Below, piece after piece: positions 8,803 to 53,703 of a DNA stretch of 64,000 bases. A program made the translations under genes and the position numbers. Each line of letters starts with the position of its first letter. The first letter of the stretch is position 1. Source of the stretch: Octopus vulgaris (Eukaryota); NCBI GenBank assembly GCA_951406725.2, contig OX597816.1, positions 66,464,001 to 66,528,000 on the forward strand, in the 5' to 3' direction. Below the pieces are notes generated by a model. That model had not been told where the DNA came from. It searched no databases and saw nothing but the letters and a program-made list of their open reading frames with translations.

Positions 8803-9020
8803 ATACAGGGGAGGGGGTGAGAAGTTCTTGGCTTTGGGTAAAAGAAGATACAAGAGAATCAGTTAATTATGATTCTATTCAACATATTTTCCCTCTCAGA
8901 TTCACATAATTATTGCAGCAGCCCTTCAATTTTTCTAAGCCCTGTAAAAGAACTTGGAAGATTGGGAATCCAGCCAAGCCTTTCACAATACCCTTAAAGC
9001 CAAGAACTTTACTGCACCCC

Positions 9021-9024
<4 letters not shown>
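8803..9024. mobile_element. Decayed mariner-derived MITE
   Basis: Imperfect TIRs agggggtgagaagttcttggcttt / aaagccaagaactttactgcacccct. Confidence 0.55.
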
Positions 9025-9060
<36 letters not shown>

Positions 9061-9149
9061 ATGCATGGCAGTGACACAGTTATCACCCAATGTCAAGACA
9101 AGGAGACAGTAAAACACACACACATATGTATAGATAACGTGTGTGTGTG

Positions 9150-10140
9150 TACCTCTACTGGCAACAAAGGGCCTTTCTCACAGAGTGCAAAGCAGATTGC
9201 TTGATGCCTGTGGGCAAACAGCTATGCTGCATGGCAGGGAAACATGAGCTATGACAGCCAAGGACATGCGTACGCATGAGAGAAGTGAAGCCAGTATGTT
9301 TCACTGGATGTGCAATGTCAGTGTGCATGTTCGACAGAGTGTAAGCATCTTGAGAGAAAAGTTAGGCATGAGAAGCATCAGGTGTGGTGTGCAAGAGGGA
9401 CAGCTGCACTGGTATGGTCATGTGATGCATATGGACGAGGACAGTTGTGTATAGAGGTACCGATCTCTAACTGTGGAGGGGACCTGTGGTAGAGGTAGAT
9501 CCAGGAAGACATAGGATGAGGCAGTGAAGCATGACTTTCAAACTTTGAAACTCACAAAGGCAATGATTAGTGACCAAGACCTTTGGTGATGTACTCTACT
9601 TAAGGGGACCCATCAAACCAAGTGTACCTGTGCTGGTGGCTTGTAAAAAAATCAATCCTGAATGTCAGGCCTCACAGAGGCAAATTAGCTGAGCAGCTTT
9701 CAAGCATCGGACCTGTCGGAGGCAATGTGGTTGAGTTGCTTTCGAACGGGCCCCACGGAGGCTAGATGGTCGAGTTCCTTTCAAGCGTTGGGCCTCATGG
9801 ATGCAAAGTGGCCAAGCACCTTTCCAGTGTTGGGCGTCACGGAGGCAACGATCAAGACTTCTGGCATTATGTTGCGCCTGAGAAGAAGACCCATCAAACC
9901 GAGCAAAGTTGCAGTCGTGGTAGATACCAGTGTCATGCAAATGGCACCTGTGCTGGTGGCACATAAAAACACCCATTACACTCTTGGAGTGGTTGGTGTT
10001 AGGAAGGGCCTCCAGCTGTAGAAAACCATGCTAAATCAGACTGTATCCTGGCACAGCCTTCCAGCATGCCAGCCCAGTCAAATCATCCAACCCATGCCAA
10101 CATGGACAATGGACGCTAAATAATGATAATGATGATGATA
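9150..10140 (+). mobile_element. RTE-clade LINE 3' fragment plus repeated 3' module and (GAT)n tail
   Basis: ORF 9251-9454 MFHWMCNVSV..LREKLGMRSI..QLHWYGHVMHMDEDS continuing to VEGTCGRGRSRKT: RTE ORF C-terminus with stops. Confidence 0.75.
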
Positions 10141-33270: not shown

Positions 33271-35756
33271 AGCAATGAGGATGAATGAAGCCAGCTCAAC
33301 CCACTCCGGGTGAATGCTGTCTCAAGACAAGAGAAGATTCTAGGGCCTTAGCCTGGCTAGTTACAAGGTGATCATCACAAGTGCTGGTGCCATGATAAAA
33401 GCACTCAGTACACTATGTAAAGTGGTTGGTATCAGGAAGGGCATCCAGCAGTAGGAACCAGCTAGAAACATTGGCGCATGATGCAATCCTCTAGCTGGTT
33501 AGATGCTGTGGTGCCATCAAGCCCATGCTAGTATAAAAGCTGAATGTCAGATGATCATGCTTACCTATTTTCAGGCAAACTGTAAAATAAATTAACTCCC
33601 TTTGATTTCTAATGTCGCAAGGTATGAACATTTAAAATATTCATAATCACTGGGGAAAATAGGTCACCATTGATAACAAAGAGATTAAATGAGTATAAAT
33701 ATTGTGTAAACACTATTTCTGAATTCACTCTACCTAACTCCAGTATTACCATATGATTTTACTGAGTGTGTGACTGGGGGCAGTGACAATAAAGATTCTT
33801 AAAGCATGTGAAGGGAGTGACAGATTTGAAAAATCAGACAAGTGTACTCTACATACTCCATGCTACTTTATAGGCTATATAGTCTTACAATCAATTTTTT
33901 AAAATCACGAGTACATTGTTTATCGGACTCAATTTCTTAAATCCCATGACTGCACTGTTTGTTGCTGCAACTAGAAATAATTGAAAACTGTAATTACAAT
34001 TTACAATATAGATTTTTCAGTGTCATCATAAGTAGGATGGTCCATTTGCTAGGGTAGTTTTAAACAGCTGAATACAAGTATGTTCTGAACTGCGATGTTG
34101 ATCGGGAGGGGGGGGTGAAATCTGTTTTCTTTATATGTCAGTCAAGCACAGTGGGAGAAGTGCAGTTAGCTTACAAGCTTATTTATAATGAACAGTGCAA
34201 TGACAGCAGTAAGATCTGACCATCCAGTCACTAAAACAGTTCAGAACTTCAACTACACAGCCATTTGAAAACAACAACAATGACAAGGGAAAAAAAATTA
34301 TTCTGTACAAATGTTGATAAATCGAAATCAGCCTGGATTGAGCAGACCTTTGATCCAACTGTTTTCCAGCCATAGCCATCATATTTCTGCATATCAGATC
34401 CCACAACTGTCATTGCCAAATGTATATTTAATTTCTGACAAATGGTTGTAACTTAAATTTGGTTGCTATTTCTAGCAGGTCAGGCAATAGCACAGAGGAT
34501 CACTTGTTGGCTTGTACAGATCACATTTATTATATGCTGGTACTGAATATTGTTGCTAGGTAATCACATATGTTCAATTTTCTAGGTATTAGCGATCTAT
34601 AATATATACCACTGTGCTGAGATTTTCATCAGATAATCTTTTGTTACTATTTTTAGCAATCTTTCATTTTGTTGCTATTTTCAGCAATCTTTCATGTTAG
34701 GCATAGAACACTATTCATTTATTAAAAATAACGTATTGATGCATTAGGCAACATTTTAAAGTACGTTGCCTCACAAAATGACCCAGTTAACTACATGTGC
34801 AATGTAGCAGATAACTGGCATTCTCTTGGTTACAATGACAGGAGTTCTGCTTGATGTGATCAACAGAAAAGCCCAGTCATGAAACTAATGCCTGCTCAGC
34901 AGGCAAGAAACACGTAGGCCCTTGATGTAGTTCTTAGGGAGACTCAGCATGACACAAAATGTTACAAGGCTGACCCTTTGAAATACAAGTATCACTCATT
35001 TTTGCCAGCTGAGTGAGCTGAAGCAAGATTTAATAAAGTGTCTTGTTCAAGGACGCAATGCACATCCAGGAGTCGAACCCATGACCTTACAATCATGAGC
35101 CAAATACATTAACCACTAAGCCACAGGACTTTGCTAACAAAGCAGATATCTCTCTTACTTGTTTCAGTCATTTGACAGTGGCCATGCTGGAGCACCGCCT
35201 TTAGTCGAACAAATCAACCCCAGGACTTATTCTTCATAAGCCTAGTACTTATTCTATCGATCTCTTTTGGCAAACCGCTAAGTTACAGGGATGTAAACAC
35301 ACCAGCATCAGTTGTCAAGCGATGTTGGGGGGACAAAACACAGACACACAAACATACACACACACATATATATTATACATATATATACATATATAAGATG
35401 GACTTCTTTCAGTTTCCATCCACCAAATCCACTCACGAGGCTTTGGTCAGCCCGAGGCTATAATAGAAGACACTTGCCCAAGGTGCCACGCAGTGGGACT
35501 GAACCCGGAACCATGTGGTTCGTAAGCAAGCTACTTTATTTTATATAATTTGCCACTAGAGCAGCACACAGAGTAGTAGCTACAGGCTGGACAAGGACAT
35601 TAATGGATGATGGTGGTGGTGGATGAAGATGGTGATGGGAGAAGTCGAAAGTGCCCGCCGACTTTCGCTTCTCTAAAACAATGTTTCAATAAATACATTT
35701 AATAAAATGTTCACAATGATTCAAATTACATAAAAAATGTTCAACAATTCTCCTCG

Positions 35757-37003
35757 TCAGGTCCCCGAAGCAAATTGCCTTGCCGCCTGCAGACAACTCT
35801 GCGACGACAAGTCGGGGCCTGCAAAGAGAAAAGTAAAATCATTCCTTTCAAAGGTCTCTGCGACCCTTGACAAAGTATCTTCCGTTACTTTTTCCGCAGC
35901 TACCCGCGGAGGCCATAACGGACTCCTTGAGCCAACCGTGCCCTTACGTTCTCGGTCACCCAAGCCATTCAAAAATCTTTCCACCTCCTCTCCCTTGTGG
36001 TAAAGGAGGAGAAGCATCTCCTCTTCACAGGAAGGGACCTCACACTGCTCCGTCAGTGGCACACTTCCTACTGGCGGAGCCTTGTCCGCGGGTGACATAC
36101 ATCCCACCCGCGGCTCCGTCGGCGACACAGAAACGTCAGTCGTCCGACCTCTCTTTTTTCTCCTCCTTCTTTTGGGGGAGACTGCTGACCCAGGGGACTC
36201 CGTCACCAGACACGGGGGATTGCTATCCCCCTCCACCCCCTGAGCGTTCTTTGGCGGGCAACCATTGTTGCTCGCCTGTCTCTTTCTTTTCGTGGAGGCA
36301 ACCTCCTCCACGACTTCCACCGTCTCCCCCTCCAATGAGGGGCGGCGGGCGCCTTTTCCCCTTTCTGCTCCGGGGCACCACCACGGCCCCCGGGACAATT
36401 CTTCCTGATATGTCCGGGCTTCAGGCACAGGTGACACTTGGGGGGGCGACCCTCGAGTATCACTGGGTACCTGTGCCCAGCCATTCTCAGGAAGTCCGGG
36501 AAGTTCATTTCTCCCACGGCCACCGGTGTCCACAGGGTCAAAGTTGCTTTTGACCCCTCCCAGGCGACCGCGGGAGCCATTTTCACACTCAGTAGTCTGG
36601 GTCCGCTATCCCCCAGGCCTCGCCGGATGGTCTTCTCGATCCATTCCGCCTCCGTGCCCGGGGGCAGCCCACACACCCAGGCTCTTTTTACTTTCCTGCC
36701 ACAATACGAGGGGAGGAACAAAATTTCCTCTCCCTCCAGTGGCTCGCTAGCAAATCTGCTAGCTTCCTCGGGGGTACCAAACAGCAACCACACCGTTGCA
36801 AATTTAGTCCCCTGAGAAATAAATTTTATAGTTGGCAGGTGGTCCCCCAACTCTTTCTCTATAGTATTCCTGTCGAAGAGGGCAATGGCTCCACGCAACC
36901 TAGAATAGGTTCGTAGGACCACCGTCCTCTTCTCAAGACTTTCAATCCACTGCTTGGGTGGGGCAACCTCCCATTCCAAAGCGGTGGTTTCTTTTGTTGC
37001 CAT
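35757..37003 (-). CDS. Gag-like ORF1 protein with CCHC zinc knuckle, split by one frameshift near 36340
   Basis: ORF 36203-37003 has RRM-like segments and YPVILEGRPPK-CHLCLKPGHIRKNC; ORF 35757-36533 supplies a plausible C-terminus with NLS-like PKRRRRKKR; joined length about 415 aa. Confidence 0.75.
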
Positions 37004-37097
37004 GTTTTGTTTTTTTTTAAATAAATGTATTCAGAATAAAACTAAAAAACGAGAAGAAAAGGAAATCCGAAGAAAGTCACAATGAAAAAAGGAGAGA

Positions 37098-37165
37098 GTC
37101 AAAGTTAAAAAGAAAGTCAAATAAAGTTAAAAAGAAAGTCAAATAAAGTTAAAAAGAAAGTCAAT
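37098..37165. repeat. 22-bp tandem repeat (about 3 copies) in the element 5' UTR
   Basis: gtcaaataaagttaaaaagaaa repeated. Confidence 0.85.
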
Positions 37166-38656
37166 AACACAGCAAAATCCTTTTGGCCATTTGGTACTCC
37201 CGGCCTAAATCAAACCAGGATCGCACAACTTCCACAAAAATTGGTGTAAAATTGGTAGTTCTTCACAGCACAATACAATTCTCACAATTACGTGAGAAAA
37301 ATATTTACTCACTTTATCGAAGACGGATACGCCCCAAAAAATTTTCTCAGCGAGAAAAATATATTTGCCACATGTCGGCAGAATCAGAATTCTGAATCCA
37401 GTAGGACTTCCTGCATGTAAAAAATAATTCTCAACAAAAACTCCCACTGGACCCAGAAAACAGAATCTTACCTTACATGGGGCTTCCAAAGTTTTCAATT
37501 CAAGACGGCTTCAAAAGCACATCCTCACCGCTTCAGTGTCAAACACAACACTGACTCGCACATGCGCAGTAAGCAAGCTACTTACCACACAGCCACTCCT
37601 ACACCAACAGTAAAAAAAAAAAATCAGTGCTGTTTACATGTCTTCTATTATAGCCTCAGGCTAACCAAAGCCTTGTGAGTGGATTTGGTAGATGGAAACT
37701 AAAAGAAGCCCGTCTTATATATGTATATATATAATATATATATATGCGTGTGTGTGTGTGTTTGTGTGTCTGTGTTTGTCCCCCCAACATCGTTTGACAA
37801 CTGATGCTGGTGTGTAACTTATGGTGGCTGTTCTTTAGGTTCAGCTCAACTTTGGTCAAGCAGACGTAGTCGAAAGTATCTTGTCAGTAACTACACAATC
37901 GTATTTTCAGGTAGTATAGCTACATTCTTCAATGAGTTTTTTCTTTTTTTTTTAAGCAACAGAATAGACAGGAGGATATTAGTGTCTCAAGTCCTAGGAT
38001 TCATAAGGCTGGTTACCTGATTTCCATGGAGTAAAAGTGACCAAAATCACAACATTACCCCTGAGCAGGACATCAGTCCAATGCAGAGTAACTCAATTAT
38101 AGCGAACTGAAGTAACATGCAATGAAGTATATTGCTCAAGAACACAATGCTCTGCCCTGTCCATGAACAGAAACCACAATCTTGAGACCATGAGTGCAAC
38201 CAGCTAACCACTAAGCCTTCACTGACAGAATGTAACTTGAGAAATATTTGGCTCTTGTCTCAAGCAACTTTTCTTTCATTGAATCATTTTCTATTTGGTG
38301 TTCTTGCTACATTATAAATTAAGACAAGAGCAAGTTAAAAATTCTGTGGACTGCCCACTACTTTGATTCTATGTCAGTCTAATTACTTTCAGCAAAATAC
38401 TTTTAGGACCAGCAGAGTGGATAGAATTTAGAGTGCGATTAACAAAAATGATTCTGTAATTGCTTGTAAGTTTTCCTGCCACCGGTAATAATTCTCATTT
38501 CTGCCAATATATTTTGCTGGACTAAGAAAAGGAGATTATATAGCAACAGACAGATCAGGTAAAAGGGGTAAAAAGATAATTTCTAATACTTTGCTCCATC
38601 AAAAATTCTGTTAAATCATTCTAATATATGATGACAGTTTTTCTTGTAGAAATTAA

Positions 38657-51850: not shown

Positions 51851-52964
51851 AAATATGCTGTGATTAATTTTGCTTTTCATCCTTCCAGACGAGATCAATA
51901 TAGTTGATTTAACTAAAATTATCACTGATCCGAATTGAGAGTAACCTGAGAATCTAGATGCCTACATCAGCATTGAAAAAAATCCTGCGAAAAGGTATCA
52001 GAAACAAACCAAAACAAAAATGGTTATACAAAAGCAATAGCAGGAGAACACAGTTTATAGTAATGGTTTACTTATTGTCCATTAATCTCAAACATTTTGT
52101 CGTCTCAATACGAACTCCCAGATATTTGTGTTTTTATCTGGGATCACTTTTTCTTCTTTTTCTTTTCTCAATGGTTTTCTTCTGCAAGATCGAATTATTC
52201 CACATAATCCCAAGATAGGTGGTATTTGTTTACATTAGTATTATCACCACTTCAGTGAAGGCGTGTGGCTTAGCAGTTAGGATATTCACCTCACAATTGT
52301 AAGGTGGTGAGTTTGATTTCTACAAATGCCCAGATATTTGTGTTTTGAAACTTTTCAATGTGGTACCTATTGTCGCCTCACCTTTTCATAATTTTTATGA
52401 ACTGGATTGACATGGATAGCTGTTGTGGAAGTGGTATCACAATCAGTCGGTGTCTTCTTTCTTCTTCTTCCAATCAGGATTCACGCCATTAGCCACAAAG
52501 AATAATCTCTAATTCGAGCCTACTCTAAACTACTAAGAATGTGTGTGGCAACTTGAAGATCCACCCACCACACACGATAGACTGGCAGTTGCACGGGCGC
52601 GAAAGCTACGTTGTTATCTTCATTCCATAAATGGTGGCTTTTAATGGGTGGAGAGCTGAACCATCCTGGGGTACAGAGTATTGGCAATCTCACCTAGGGT
52701 CTGAAAGTTTACCACACCATAGTGGGTTACACCATGGTTCCTCTGCTTTGTGGCAGAAGTAGGAAGAAAGAGTGAGAGAAAGTTGTGGTGAAAGAGTACA
52801 GTGGGGTGTCCCCTCCACCCCAGGCCAGAGTCTCGTGGAGCTTAGGTGTTTTTGCTCAATAAACACTCACAATGCCTGGTCTGGGAATCAAAACCACATT
52901 CTTACAACCGCGAGTCCACTGCCCTAACCACTGGGCCATTGCGCCTCCACATCAGTCGGTGTTG

Positions 52965-53703
52965 GCTCGGTTGGCTGATATTTTCAGACAATATGGTGCT
53001 AGAAGGTTCATCTGAAGGAGATTTCCTGTATACACTGAATATATTTGCTGCTGAGTGCTGCAAGGCAGGGCTGAGAATTGGTGTTGCAAAGATTGAAACA
53101 TTGGTCCTCTTAAGAAAGTCTTTCCAGTCCACTCTGCATGCTAGTGAAACATCACTGAGACAAATGAAATTAAAGCAACTCCGGGCTGAATTGCTGGCAT
53201 GGCAATGTGCCAGTTCCCGTATTCGATCTTCTGATAAGAAAGCCAAACTTGTTATCCACAATTCGGTCTTTGTTCCCAGCCTCAACTATAGTCATGAATG
53301 TTGATTAATAATTGAAAGGGTGCAATTATGAATACAAGTGGTCGAAATGAAGTTCCTCTGAAAGATCTCCGGAGTAACATTACTTGATAAGATGCATGCA
53401 TGTCTTGGAGATGAGGGACTCTCCCCTGGTTGAGCCACTACTTCTCTGTATTGAGAGGTTACAGGAAAAAGTCACAAGATAGATTCTTCAAGCCAAACCA
53501 ACTGGCAGGAAGTTTTGGAATAGACGAAGACCAAGATGGTTGGATAATGTCCTTAGTCTCAGAGGTCACACTTGGGAATCCAGCCGGTAAGTCTAATGTC
53601 AGATGCTTCTGATAAGACCCAATGGAGGAGATGCCAGAGGACTCCACCCCAACAGCCTTCCCAGGAGTATTTGATGGTGGAGATAGATGAATGGATAGAT
53701 GGA
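52965..53703 (+). mobile_element. RTE-clade (Expander-like) LINE RT/C-terminal fragment
   Basis: LIFSDNMVL (FADD-like)..FAAECCKAGLRIGVAK..KAKLVIHNSVFVPSLNYSHEC; degenerate (GATG)n tail. Confidence 0.7.

What the first reader, a model, noticed from the sequence alone, without database searches (positions are those of the whole stretch)
35537..37568. Young ORF1-only (HAL1-like) retroelement with no endonuclease or reverse transcriptase
Seen: a 2032-bp CpG-rich island bounded by a perfect 15-bp TSD, made of a 565-nt 5' UTR, one ~415-aa gag-like ORF (RRM-like region, CX2CX4HX4C knuckle, basic NLS-like tract), a ~220-nt 3' UTR and an A-rich end. Ordinary LINE truncation removes the 5' end and keeps ORF2; here the reverse is seen with both termini intact. 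Known: HAL1 elements are ORF1-only derivatives of L1-clade LINEs. Inferred: a non-autonomous family that packages its own RNA and borrows ORF2 in trans.
Basis: partly seen in the sequence, partly recalled or inferred. Interest (0 to 1): 0.78.

Follow-up and report, generated by a model that had tools for sequence, protein, structure and literature searches.

The report
ORF1-only LINE riders targeting one SINE
In what is likely an octopus genome, this 2-kb jumping element carries only a predicted RNA-binding protein and is one of several such families that sit at the same spot inside an abundant short repeat, where they are likely pasted in by a full-length LINE that shares that spot and their tail.

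Summary
The 2032-bp element (minus strand) belongs to a family: 19 more full-length copies, none with ORF2. Its ORF1 (open for 414-415 aa in 5 of 27 copies; one base short in the window copy) models as two RRMs plus a CCHC knuckle, so it is not L1/HAL1-type. dN/dS between related ORF1-only families is about 0.1-0.3. All 20 full-length copies sit at one 15-nt site between the A and B boxes of a tRNA-like SINE head (67,718 exact empty sites; 1,091 filled junctions). At least five ORF1-only families and a young 5.4-kb LINE with intact ORF1 and APE-RT-zf ORF2 share this site and a 40-nt 3' end without poly(A). That LINE is the likely helper, but its ORF1 is only 28% identical, so the ORF1-only lineage is old. 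Family A is stacked upstream of other units at 27 of 34 ends (helper: 2 of 20), and part of the 'TSD' is element-carried. Verdict: a new variant of a known kind (works like HeT-A/HAL1, on a Tx1-like site-specific LINE). Tx1 membership and the mechanism are untested.

The parts
37584..37605 (-). 5' part of the host SINE head, with A-box-like motif at 37585-37595
   Evidence: 1 mismatch to the A-box consensus, which is recalled; Rfam gave no tRNA match
37569..37583 (-). Upstream copy of the 15-nt target repeat; its 3' part is likely carried by the element
   Evidence: D14
35537..37568 (-). ORF1-only retroelement, family A (subfamily shared with L002 and L005)
37004..37568 (-). 5' UTR, 565 nt; swapped between related families
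35757..37003 (-). ORF1 (414-415 aa in open copies); 1-bp deletion near 36343 in this copy
36443..36964 (-). Two predicted RRM domains (aa about 14-103 and 101-187)
   Evidence: (pLDDT 84, modelled on copy L011)
36392..36439 (-). CX2CX4HX4C zinc knuckle
36144..36173 (-). Basic tract, possible nuclear localisation or nucleic-acid-binding signal (untested)
   Evidence: sequence
35537..35756 (-). 3' UTR, 220 nt; the last 40 nt or so are shared with the 5.4-kb LINE and the other ORF1-only families; no poly(A)
35522..35536 (-). Downstream copy of the 15-nt target repeat
35150..35521 (-). Rest of the host SINE, with B-box-like motif at 35495-35505; far end approximate

Best explanation
This is a copy of a non-autonomous retrotransposon family that encodes only ORF1 and sits at one fixed site in the head of an abundant SINE, and it is likely copied there in trans by the endonuclease and reverse transcriptase of a 5.4-kb L1/Tx1-group LINE (family X) that shares the site and the 3' end. 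Shown: family structure, absence of ORF2, the fixed site, the shared tail, intact X copies, purifying selection on the RRM-RRM-CCHC half of ORF1. Inferred: the element is transcribed from its CpG-rich 5' UTR; its ORF1p coats its own RNA; X ORF2p recognises the shared 40-nt tail, nicks the SINE 15-mer and primes reverse transcription there; a short target-like leader on the RNA anneals to form the 5' junction and rebuilds a full target, so further units can stack head to tail. The insertion separates the SINE's A- and B-box-like motifs by kilobases and would disable that SINE copy's internal promoter, while a target present in tens of thousands of copies would give the guild a safe niche.
For: 20 of 20 full-length copies flanked by the same repeat; 58 of 58 exact family-A 3' ends followed by the first 6 nt of the target; 1,091 end-plus-target junctions, control 0; 67,718 exact empty sites. 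X: Exo_endo_phos E=5e-13, RVT_1 E=5e-27, zf-RVT E=7e-9; human L1 ORF2p E=3e-67; 11 of 11 catalytic and domain motifs looked for are present in L067; ORF1 and ORF2 both open in L062 and L067; 14 of 14 top X copies have the SINE head at the 5' junction and 13 of 13 read to the end have the SINE on both sides. Shared tail across 8 of 8 unit types aligned. 60 of the 150 listed ORF1 hits were read: 59 have a target junction, 58 have no ORF2 in the unit. dN/dS of A against 14 measurable relatives 0.09-0.39 by NG86, 0.14-0.55 by YN00. Host SINE halves at 13 X loci differ by 4.8% where X differs by 0.9%, as expected of separate insertions into older SINE copies.
Against: No biochemical or transposition test. 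X ORF1 is only 28-29% identical to A ORF1, and outside the last 40 nt or so there is no DNA likeness, so X is tied to A by target and tail alone. Only the best candidates were scored in the genome searches (150 of 11,773; 150 of 8,594), so a closer helper could be missed. Only 5 of 27 A copies have an open ORF, one with an altered start codon. The C-terminal half of ORF1 is weakly constrained (NG86 0.38-0.86). The first 6 nt after the 3' end may belong to the element itself (L025), which weakens the 58 of 58 count as a test of targeting. 5 of 5 older ORF2 relatives at 61-67% showed no clear target junction.
Confidence: 0.85

Rival explanations
1. The helper is not X but another, unseen or extinct autonomous LINE with an A-type ORF1; A is a recent deletion product of it.
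For: A and X share only the last 40 nt or so and 28% ORF1 identity; genome searches were capped.
Against: 58 of 60 ORF1-hit loci at 62-100% identity lack ORF2 in the unit; the exceptions are one Y-X chimera and one decayed array. The 13 A-clade rows form one group on a long branch apart from the 4 ORF2-bearing ORF1s. 49 of the 51 best database relatives examined are nearer X or Z than the A clade. X is young and intact at the same site.
Confidence: 0.08
2. SINE and insert move together as one composite, or filled sites spread by segmental copying, so no sequence-specific endonuclease is needed.
For: 10 of 13 young X copies lie in one SINE subfamily; the upstream repeat follows the family.
Against: Downstream SINE halves are five times more diverged than the X inserts (4.8% against 0.9%, 78 pairs); the 13 upstream flanks beyond the SINE head differ; many unrelated unit types use the same site.
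Confidence: 0.04
3. The family is real, but the head-to-tail arrays come from unequal crossing-over or gene conversion after a single insertion, not from repeated insertion or template jumping.
For: L006 and L010 in one array differ by 0.08%; A copies are mosaics of haplotype blocks; a run of 7 exact A ends at 2-kb spacing on C1.
Against: 11 of 12 within-array pairs differ by 0.4-1.2%; array members group with copies on other contigs; arrays mix families that share no DNA but the tail. This rival concerns the arrays only and is compatible with the main reading.
Confidence: 0.25
4. One-off internal deletion or assembly collapse of a LINE.
For: The assembly shows many homopolymer indels.
Against: 19 other full-length copies on 9 contigs; contigs of 4 of 4 other runs under four organism labels cover all 30 bins.
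Confidence: 0.01

Closest known systems
HAL1 (half-L1) elements
   Same: Non-autonomous LINE derivative that encodes only ORF1p (PMC5753468, passages).
   Different: HAL1 derives from the L1 clade of mammals; here ORF1 is type I (RRM plus CCHC) with no Transposase_22 match, there is no poly(A), and insertion is at one fixed sequence.
Drosophila HeT-A and other ORF1-only telomeric Jockey elements; Ag-Sponge (CR1)
   Same: ORF1-only, CCHC-bearing, long-lived beside an ORF2-bearing partner in head-to-tail arrays at a special niche; about 40% of telomeric families are ORF1-only (PMC13534243, PMC5786205, passages).
   Different: Other clades (Jockey, CR1); HeT-A's niche is the chromosome end and serves the host. 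Here the niche is an internal sequence of a SINE, dispersed over more than 1,000 junctions.
Target-specific Tx1-clade LINEs (Tx1L in Tx1D, Keno in U2, Kibi/Koshi, Tx1-Mar) and SINEU-3
   Same: APE-RT LINEs with sequence-specific insertion, some into another transposon; a non-autonomous rider shares the target and forms tandems that sandwich a TSD (PMC4494074, passages and section 15). Type I ORF1 is described as consistent with Tx1 (PMC5203782, passages).
   Different: Targets named there are DNA transposons, LTR elements, snRNA and 5S genes, satellites and microsatellites, not a SINE head; the rider there (SINEU) is non-coding. Tx1 is not among the clades listed as giving ORF1-only derivatives (PMC5786205).

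Membership tests
HAL1 | Encodes ORF1p only, both ends intact, multicopy | tested here: met
HAL1 | ORF1p of mammalian L1 type (Transposase_22, type II) | tested here: not met
   No Transposase_22 hit in the two window frames, the full open copy or 17 aligned members; a CCHC knuckle and a two-RRM model instead
HAL1 | Poly(A) tail and dispersed L1-type insertion (feature recalled) | tested here: not met
   Fixed 3' end and one target
ORF1-present bipartite non-autonomous LINE (HeT-A/HAL1/Ag-Sponge kind) | ORF1 homologous to that of an autonomous LINE, ORF2 absent | tested here: met
   tblastn A against X ORF1 29%, E=8e-21; no ORF2 in 58 of 60 units
ORF1-present bipartite non-autonomous LINE (HeT-A/HAL1/Ag-Sponge kind) | 3' end shared with the partner LINE | tested here: met
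   Last 40 nt or so aligned across 8 unit types; short, and not found by blastn between A and X
ORF1-present bipartite non-autonomous LINE (HeT-A/HAL1/Ag-Sponge kind) | ORF1 kept under purifying selection | tested here: met
ORF1-present bipartite non-autonomous LINE (HeT-A/HAL1/Ag-Sponge kind) | Mobilised in trans by the partner's ORF2p | not testable with these tools
   Inferred from shared target, tail and age
Tx1 clade (partner X) | Two ORFs; APE endonuclease, RT and C-terminal zinc motif, L1 group | tested here: met
Tx1 clade (partner X) | Type I ORF1 with RRM and CCHC | tested here: met
   zf-CCHC E=1e-5 in X ORF1; homology to the modelled two-RRM domain
Tx1 clade (partner X) | Sequence-specific insertion (common in the clade, not universal) | tested here: met
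Tx1 clade (partner X) | RT groups with named Tx1 elements in a tree | not testable with these tools
   No named Tx1 sequence came back; no RT tree was built
Octopus tRNA-derived CORE SINE (host repeat) | tRNA-like head with A and B boxes | tested here: inconclusive
   Each box 1 mismatch from the recalled consensus; no Rfam tRNA match; ARAGORN none in the window
Octopus tRNA-derived CORE SINE (host repeat) | Sequence match to OR1/OR2/OK or the CORE domain | not tested
   No reference sequence held; OR2 as a CORE SINE is from PMC4758252

The most novel reading that the evidence does not exclude
A guild of protein-coding parasites lives on one SINE-targeting LINE, and family A has become a passenger that seldom starts an insertion itself: it is added upstream of an X or Y unit in the same event, by the reverse transcriptase jumping between RNAs whose ends carry halves of the target, or by read-through transcripts. 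Each event knocks apart a SINE's promoter boxes and rebuilds the target, giving ordered, mixed arrays: HeT-A-like behaviour away from telomeres, and a three-level system (SINE as target, LINE as engine, ORF1-only riders).
Probability: 0.4. Interest if true: 0.85.

Novelty: new variant of a known kind. Interest (0 to 1): 0.7.

Why it matters
Why ORF1-only LINE derivatives keep their ORF1 is open. Here many such families, diverged to synonymous saturation, live beside an intact helper at one defined site, so the cis role of ORF1p, tail recognition and target choice can each be tested with clean read-outs. A LINE endonuclease that is strict for a 15-nt site in a SINE head adds a new target class to site-specific APE retrotransposons and may act as a brake on the genome's commonest SINE. 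The polar stacking and the target-like leader bear on how 5' junctions and tandem arrays form. These copies are also taken for host genes: an Octopus sinensis RefSeq protein falls inside the A clade.

Tried and rejected
Expression: no RNA holder listed; four runs guessed to be RNA gave contigs over 20-30 of 30 bins at mostly low depth, which shows neither transcription nor silence. Naming the clade of X by database labels failed. Rfam and ARAGORN did not call the SINE head a tRNA. A test of whether the start of the downstream repeat is element-carried was inconclusive (mismatches at positions 1-6: right 6 of 564, left 10 of 582, empty 12 of 228). A test of whether A-X pairs move as one unit was inconclusive: 2 of the 5 X units directly downstream of an A copy share a distinct 5' variant and their A partners group together, but the solo X set was picked by likeness to a young copy. 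Folding of three 3' tails gave a small hairpin in X and Y and another fold in A, with no shuffle control. Fold searches did not list L1 ORF1p among the rows shown, which does not exclude likeness. Three look-ups of earlier findings returned nothing. Bao and Jurka 2010 and Christensen 2000 were not held. Literature searches found no report of an ORF1-only Tx1-type family or of SINE-head targeting in octopus; Repbase, Dfam, subscription journals and the Zenodo library and supplement of PMC13282606 were not seen and may hold these families. Pfam found nothing in the frame at 52846-53304.
Full report
OBSERVATION. The insert spans 35537-37568 on the minus strand between two identical 15-mers. It has a 565-nt 5' UTR, an ATG at 37003, a stop ending at 35757 and a 220-nt 3' UTR; CpG o/e is 0.72 against 0.40 for the window. 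The ORF is split by a 1-bp deletion in a C run near 36343. Of 27 full-length copies compared, 5 are open for 414-415 aa (one with an altered start codon); 23 of 33 single-base deletions lie in runs of 4 or more, and one G run is short in 10 copies. Contigs of 7 of 8 other runs show the extra base at the window's break, and none of the four DNA-like runs lists the G-run deletion at the 25% level. Many breaks may therefore be assembly errors; contigs cannot settle this for one copy. The 3' end is A/T-rich but fixed, with no poly(A).

FAMILY. A DNA search of the own genome (2.8 Gb) gave 56 matches, 20 of them full length at 91-100% including the window (37 of 2,263 candidates scored). Median pairwise distance in the ORF is 1.6%; the window copy is 1.8-5% from the others. 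Contigs of four runs under four organism labels cover all 30 bins. Named relatives come from Octopus sinensis, O. vulgaris, O. bimaculoides and Argonauta, so the host is likely an octopus.

PROTEIN. Pfam sees only a weak zinc knuckle (13 of 17 members). AlphaFold2 on a 17-row alignment gave pLDDT 84 for aa 1-210 of copy L011. The best Foldseek hits are tandem-RRM proteins (hnRNP A1, E=3e-4, TM about 0.3), and VIA-align matches aa 14-103 and 101-187 each to RRMs at Z 7-8, a level that a common fold can reach. The ESM Atlas gave CCHC and ZCCHC3-like RBD clusters at 0.91-0.93. Together this is a type I ORF1 (RRM plus CCHC) as defined in PMC5203782 (passages), not the mammalian L1 type. Using single open copies, dN/dS over about 195 codons of this half is 0.09-0.39 (NG86) for A against 14 measurable relatives, with dS up to 2.2; the 0.39 row has an internally shifted frame, and two further pairs (Z, X) are saturated. 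The C-terminal half is looser (0.38-0.86).

TARGET. All 20 full-length copies have the same repeat on both sides. Outside the outermost repeats lie the two halves of one SINE: a head with an A-box-like motif before and a B-box-like motif after (consensus recalled; Rfam found no tRNA). The exact empty 29-mer occurs 67,718 times and an element end plus target 1,091 times, controls 0, about 1.6% by these exact patterns. All 58 exact family-A 3' ends are followed by the target's first 6 nt; one 5'-truncated copy (L025) has only those 6 nt and lies outside a SINE, so they may belong to the element.

THE GUILD AND ITS ENGINE. Cutting 20 fetched stretches at the repeat showed arrays of distinct units: A (2.0 kb), W/U (2.3-2.5 kb), Y (2.2 kb), V (2.1 kb), Z (1.5 kb) and X (5.4 kb). 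X carries ORF1 plus APE endonuclease, RT and zf-RVT, is nearest to L1 ORF2p among solved structures (E=3e-67; R2 1e-19), and is young: 75 listed endonuclease hits over 240 or more of the 243 query residues at 95% or more (read from the table), with both ORFs open in L062 and L067. 14 of 14 sampled top X copies start at the SINE site and 13 of 13 read through are solo; one 85% relative is also at the site, while 5 of 5 at 61-67% showed no clear junction. All 8 unit types aligned share the last 40 nt or so. Of the first 30 junctions on contig 1, 7 end in X-like ORF2, 14 show an A-type ORF1 hit, and 9 are short, Z-like or unplaced within 1.5 kb. I read 60 of the 150 listed ORF1 hits (62-100% identity): 59 have a target junction and 58 have no ORF2 in the unit; L131 is a Y body joined to the end of X ORF1, and L083 is a decayed array. 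In a 19-row tree, 13 A-clade ORF1s and the O. sinensis protein form one group (100/100) on a long branch from Z and from 4 ORF2-bearing ORF1s; 2 frame-disturbed rows were left out, the root is by midpoint, and long branches meet. 49 of 51 top database relatives are nearer X or Z. So the copies are young, but the ORF1-only lineage is old and is not a fresh deletion of X.

SEPARATE INSERTIONS. At 13 X loci the inserts differ by 0.9% and the downstream SINE halves by 4.8%, with unrelated flanks. This fits insertion into existing SINE copies, not movement of a composite.

JUNCTIONS AND STACKING. Left and right repeats are identical at only 20 of 38 complete sites (read from the table). In family B, 18 of 18 upstream repeats carry the same 1-nt-short variant and 0 of the 14 downstream repeats recovered do; the variant pattern occurs 67 times in the genome. 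The 3' part of the upstream repeat is therefore carried by the element, and the true duplication is likely shorter than 15 nt (inferred). Family A has another unit directly downstream at 27 of 34 distinct ends, against 2 of 20 for X, 2 of 29 for Y/B and 0 of 12 for V (Fisher p under 1e-6, but array members are not independent and some X and Y ends were fetched because they follow A). By locus it is 15 of 18 for full-length A against 0 of 13 for independently sampled X. With about 1.6% of sites filled, chance re-insertion cannot give this. Copies within an array mostly differ by 0.4-1.2% and group with copies elsewhere. Template jumping, read-through co-transposition and later recombination all remain open; end-to-end jumping by R2 RT is recalled and seen here only as a reference title.

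MECHANISM. Shown: structure, family, target, shared tail, intact partner, selection. Inferred: transcription from the 5' UTR, ORF1p binding its own RNA, X ORF2p binding the tail, nicking the 15-mer and priming there, and a leader-guided 5' junction that rebuilds the target. Confidence 0.85 for trans-mobilisation by X at a fixed site; 0.4 for the passenger model of A.

COMPARISON. ORF1-bearing non-autonomous LINEs are known from the L1 (HAL1), Jockey (HeT-A) and CR1 (Ag-Sponge) clades (PMC5786205, passages; PMC5753468, passages; PMC13534243, passages). Tx1-clade LINEs often target fixed sequences, including other transposons, and SINEU-3 forms tandems around a TSD (PMC4494074, passages and section 15). 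It works like HeT-A or HAL1 on a Tx1-like engine; it fails two HAL1 features, and Tx1 membership rests on architecture, not a tree. A 2026 octopus repeat annotation lists 13 recently active L1-Tx1 families but, in the two of three parts that I read, says nothing of targets or ORF1-only forms (PMC13282606; supplement and library not seen). PMC4758252, PMC8967140 and PMC8869645 were seen as passages. Eight searches found no description of this system; Repbase and Dfam could not be searched.

VERDICT. Real, and richer than reported: a new variant of a known kind. Interest 0.70.

Noticed in passing
window 37639-37815 (+) and 35297-35472 (-): A second, 5'-clipped copy of the same SINE lies head to head with the target SINE and makes a 146-nt inverted repeat around the insert; likely chance given the SINE's abundance.
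   Followed up: partly
L131 (G000:C4:127351000-127359000): Chimera: most of a Y unit joined over a few shared bases to X from the end of ORF1 onward, with no target repeat between; a template switch or a deletion in an array.
   Followed up: partly
L050, L022, L023, L024, L154: 5' UTRs are swapped between families (A UTR on Y ORF, Y UTR on A ORF; L154 begins with X's first 16 nt or so), and A copies are haplotype mosaics.
   Followed up: partly
L106, L120, L090: Very short units (about 50-90 nt) between target repeats that keep only the two ends or the tail; possible seeds of non-coding riders.
   Followed up: no
G000:C1:223694773-223706786; C5:78746217-78756159; C10:101175583-101186106: Long arrays with 6-7 exact family-A ends each; the C1 array ends in an X unit with a long open ORF2.
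   Followed up: partly
L061-L074: Young X copies favour one SINE subfamily: 11 of 13 downstream repeats have the A variant at position 13 unchanged in its last four bases, against 48 of the first 100 empty sites listed (hand count).
   Followed up: partly
P0001, P0210, P0212, P0337: ORF1 relatives are annotated as octopus genes, one as 'EPM2A-interacting 1-like' and one fused to WD40 repeats in a gene model.
   Followed up: no
window 9001-10000: GC-rich kilobase (48%) with only a short TG repeat found; not identified.
   Followed up: partly
window 52846-53304 (+): 152-aa open frame that reads like a decayed LINE RT C-terminal piece by eye; no Pfam match.
   Followed up: partly
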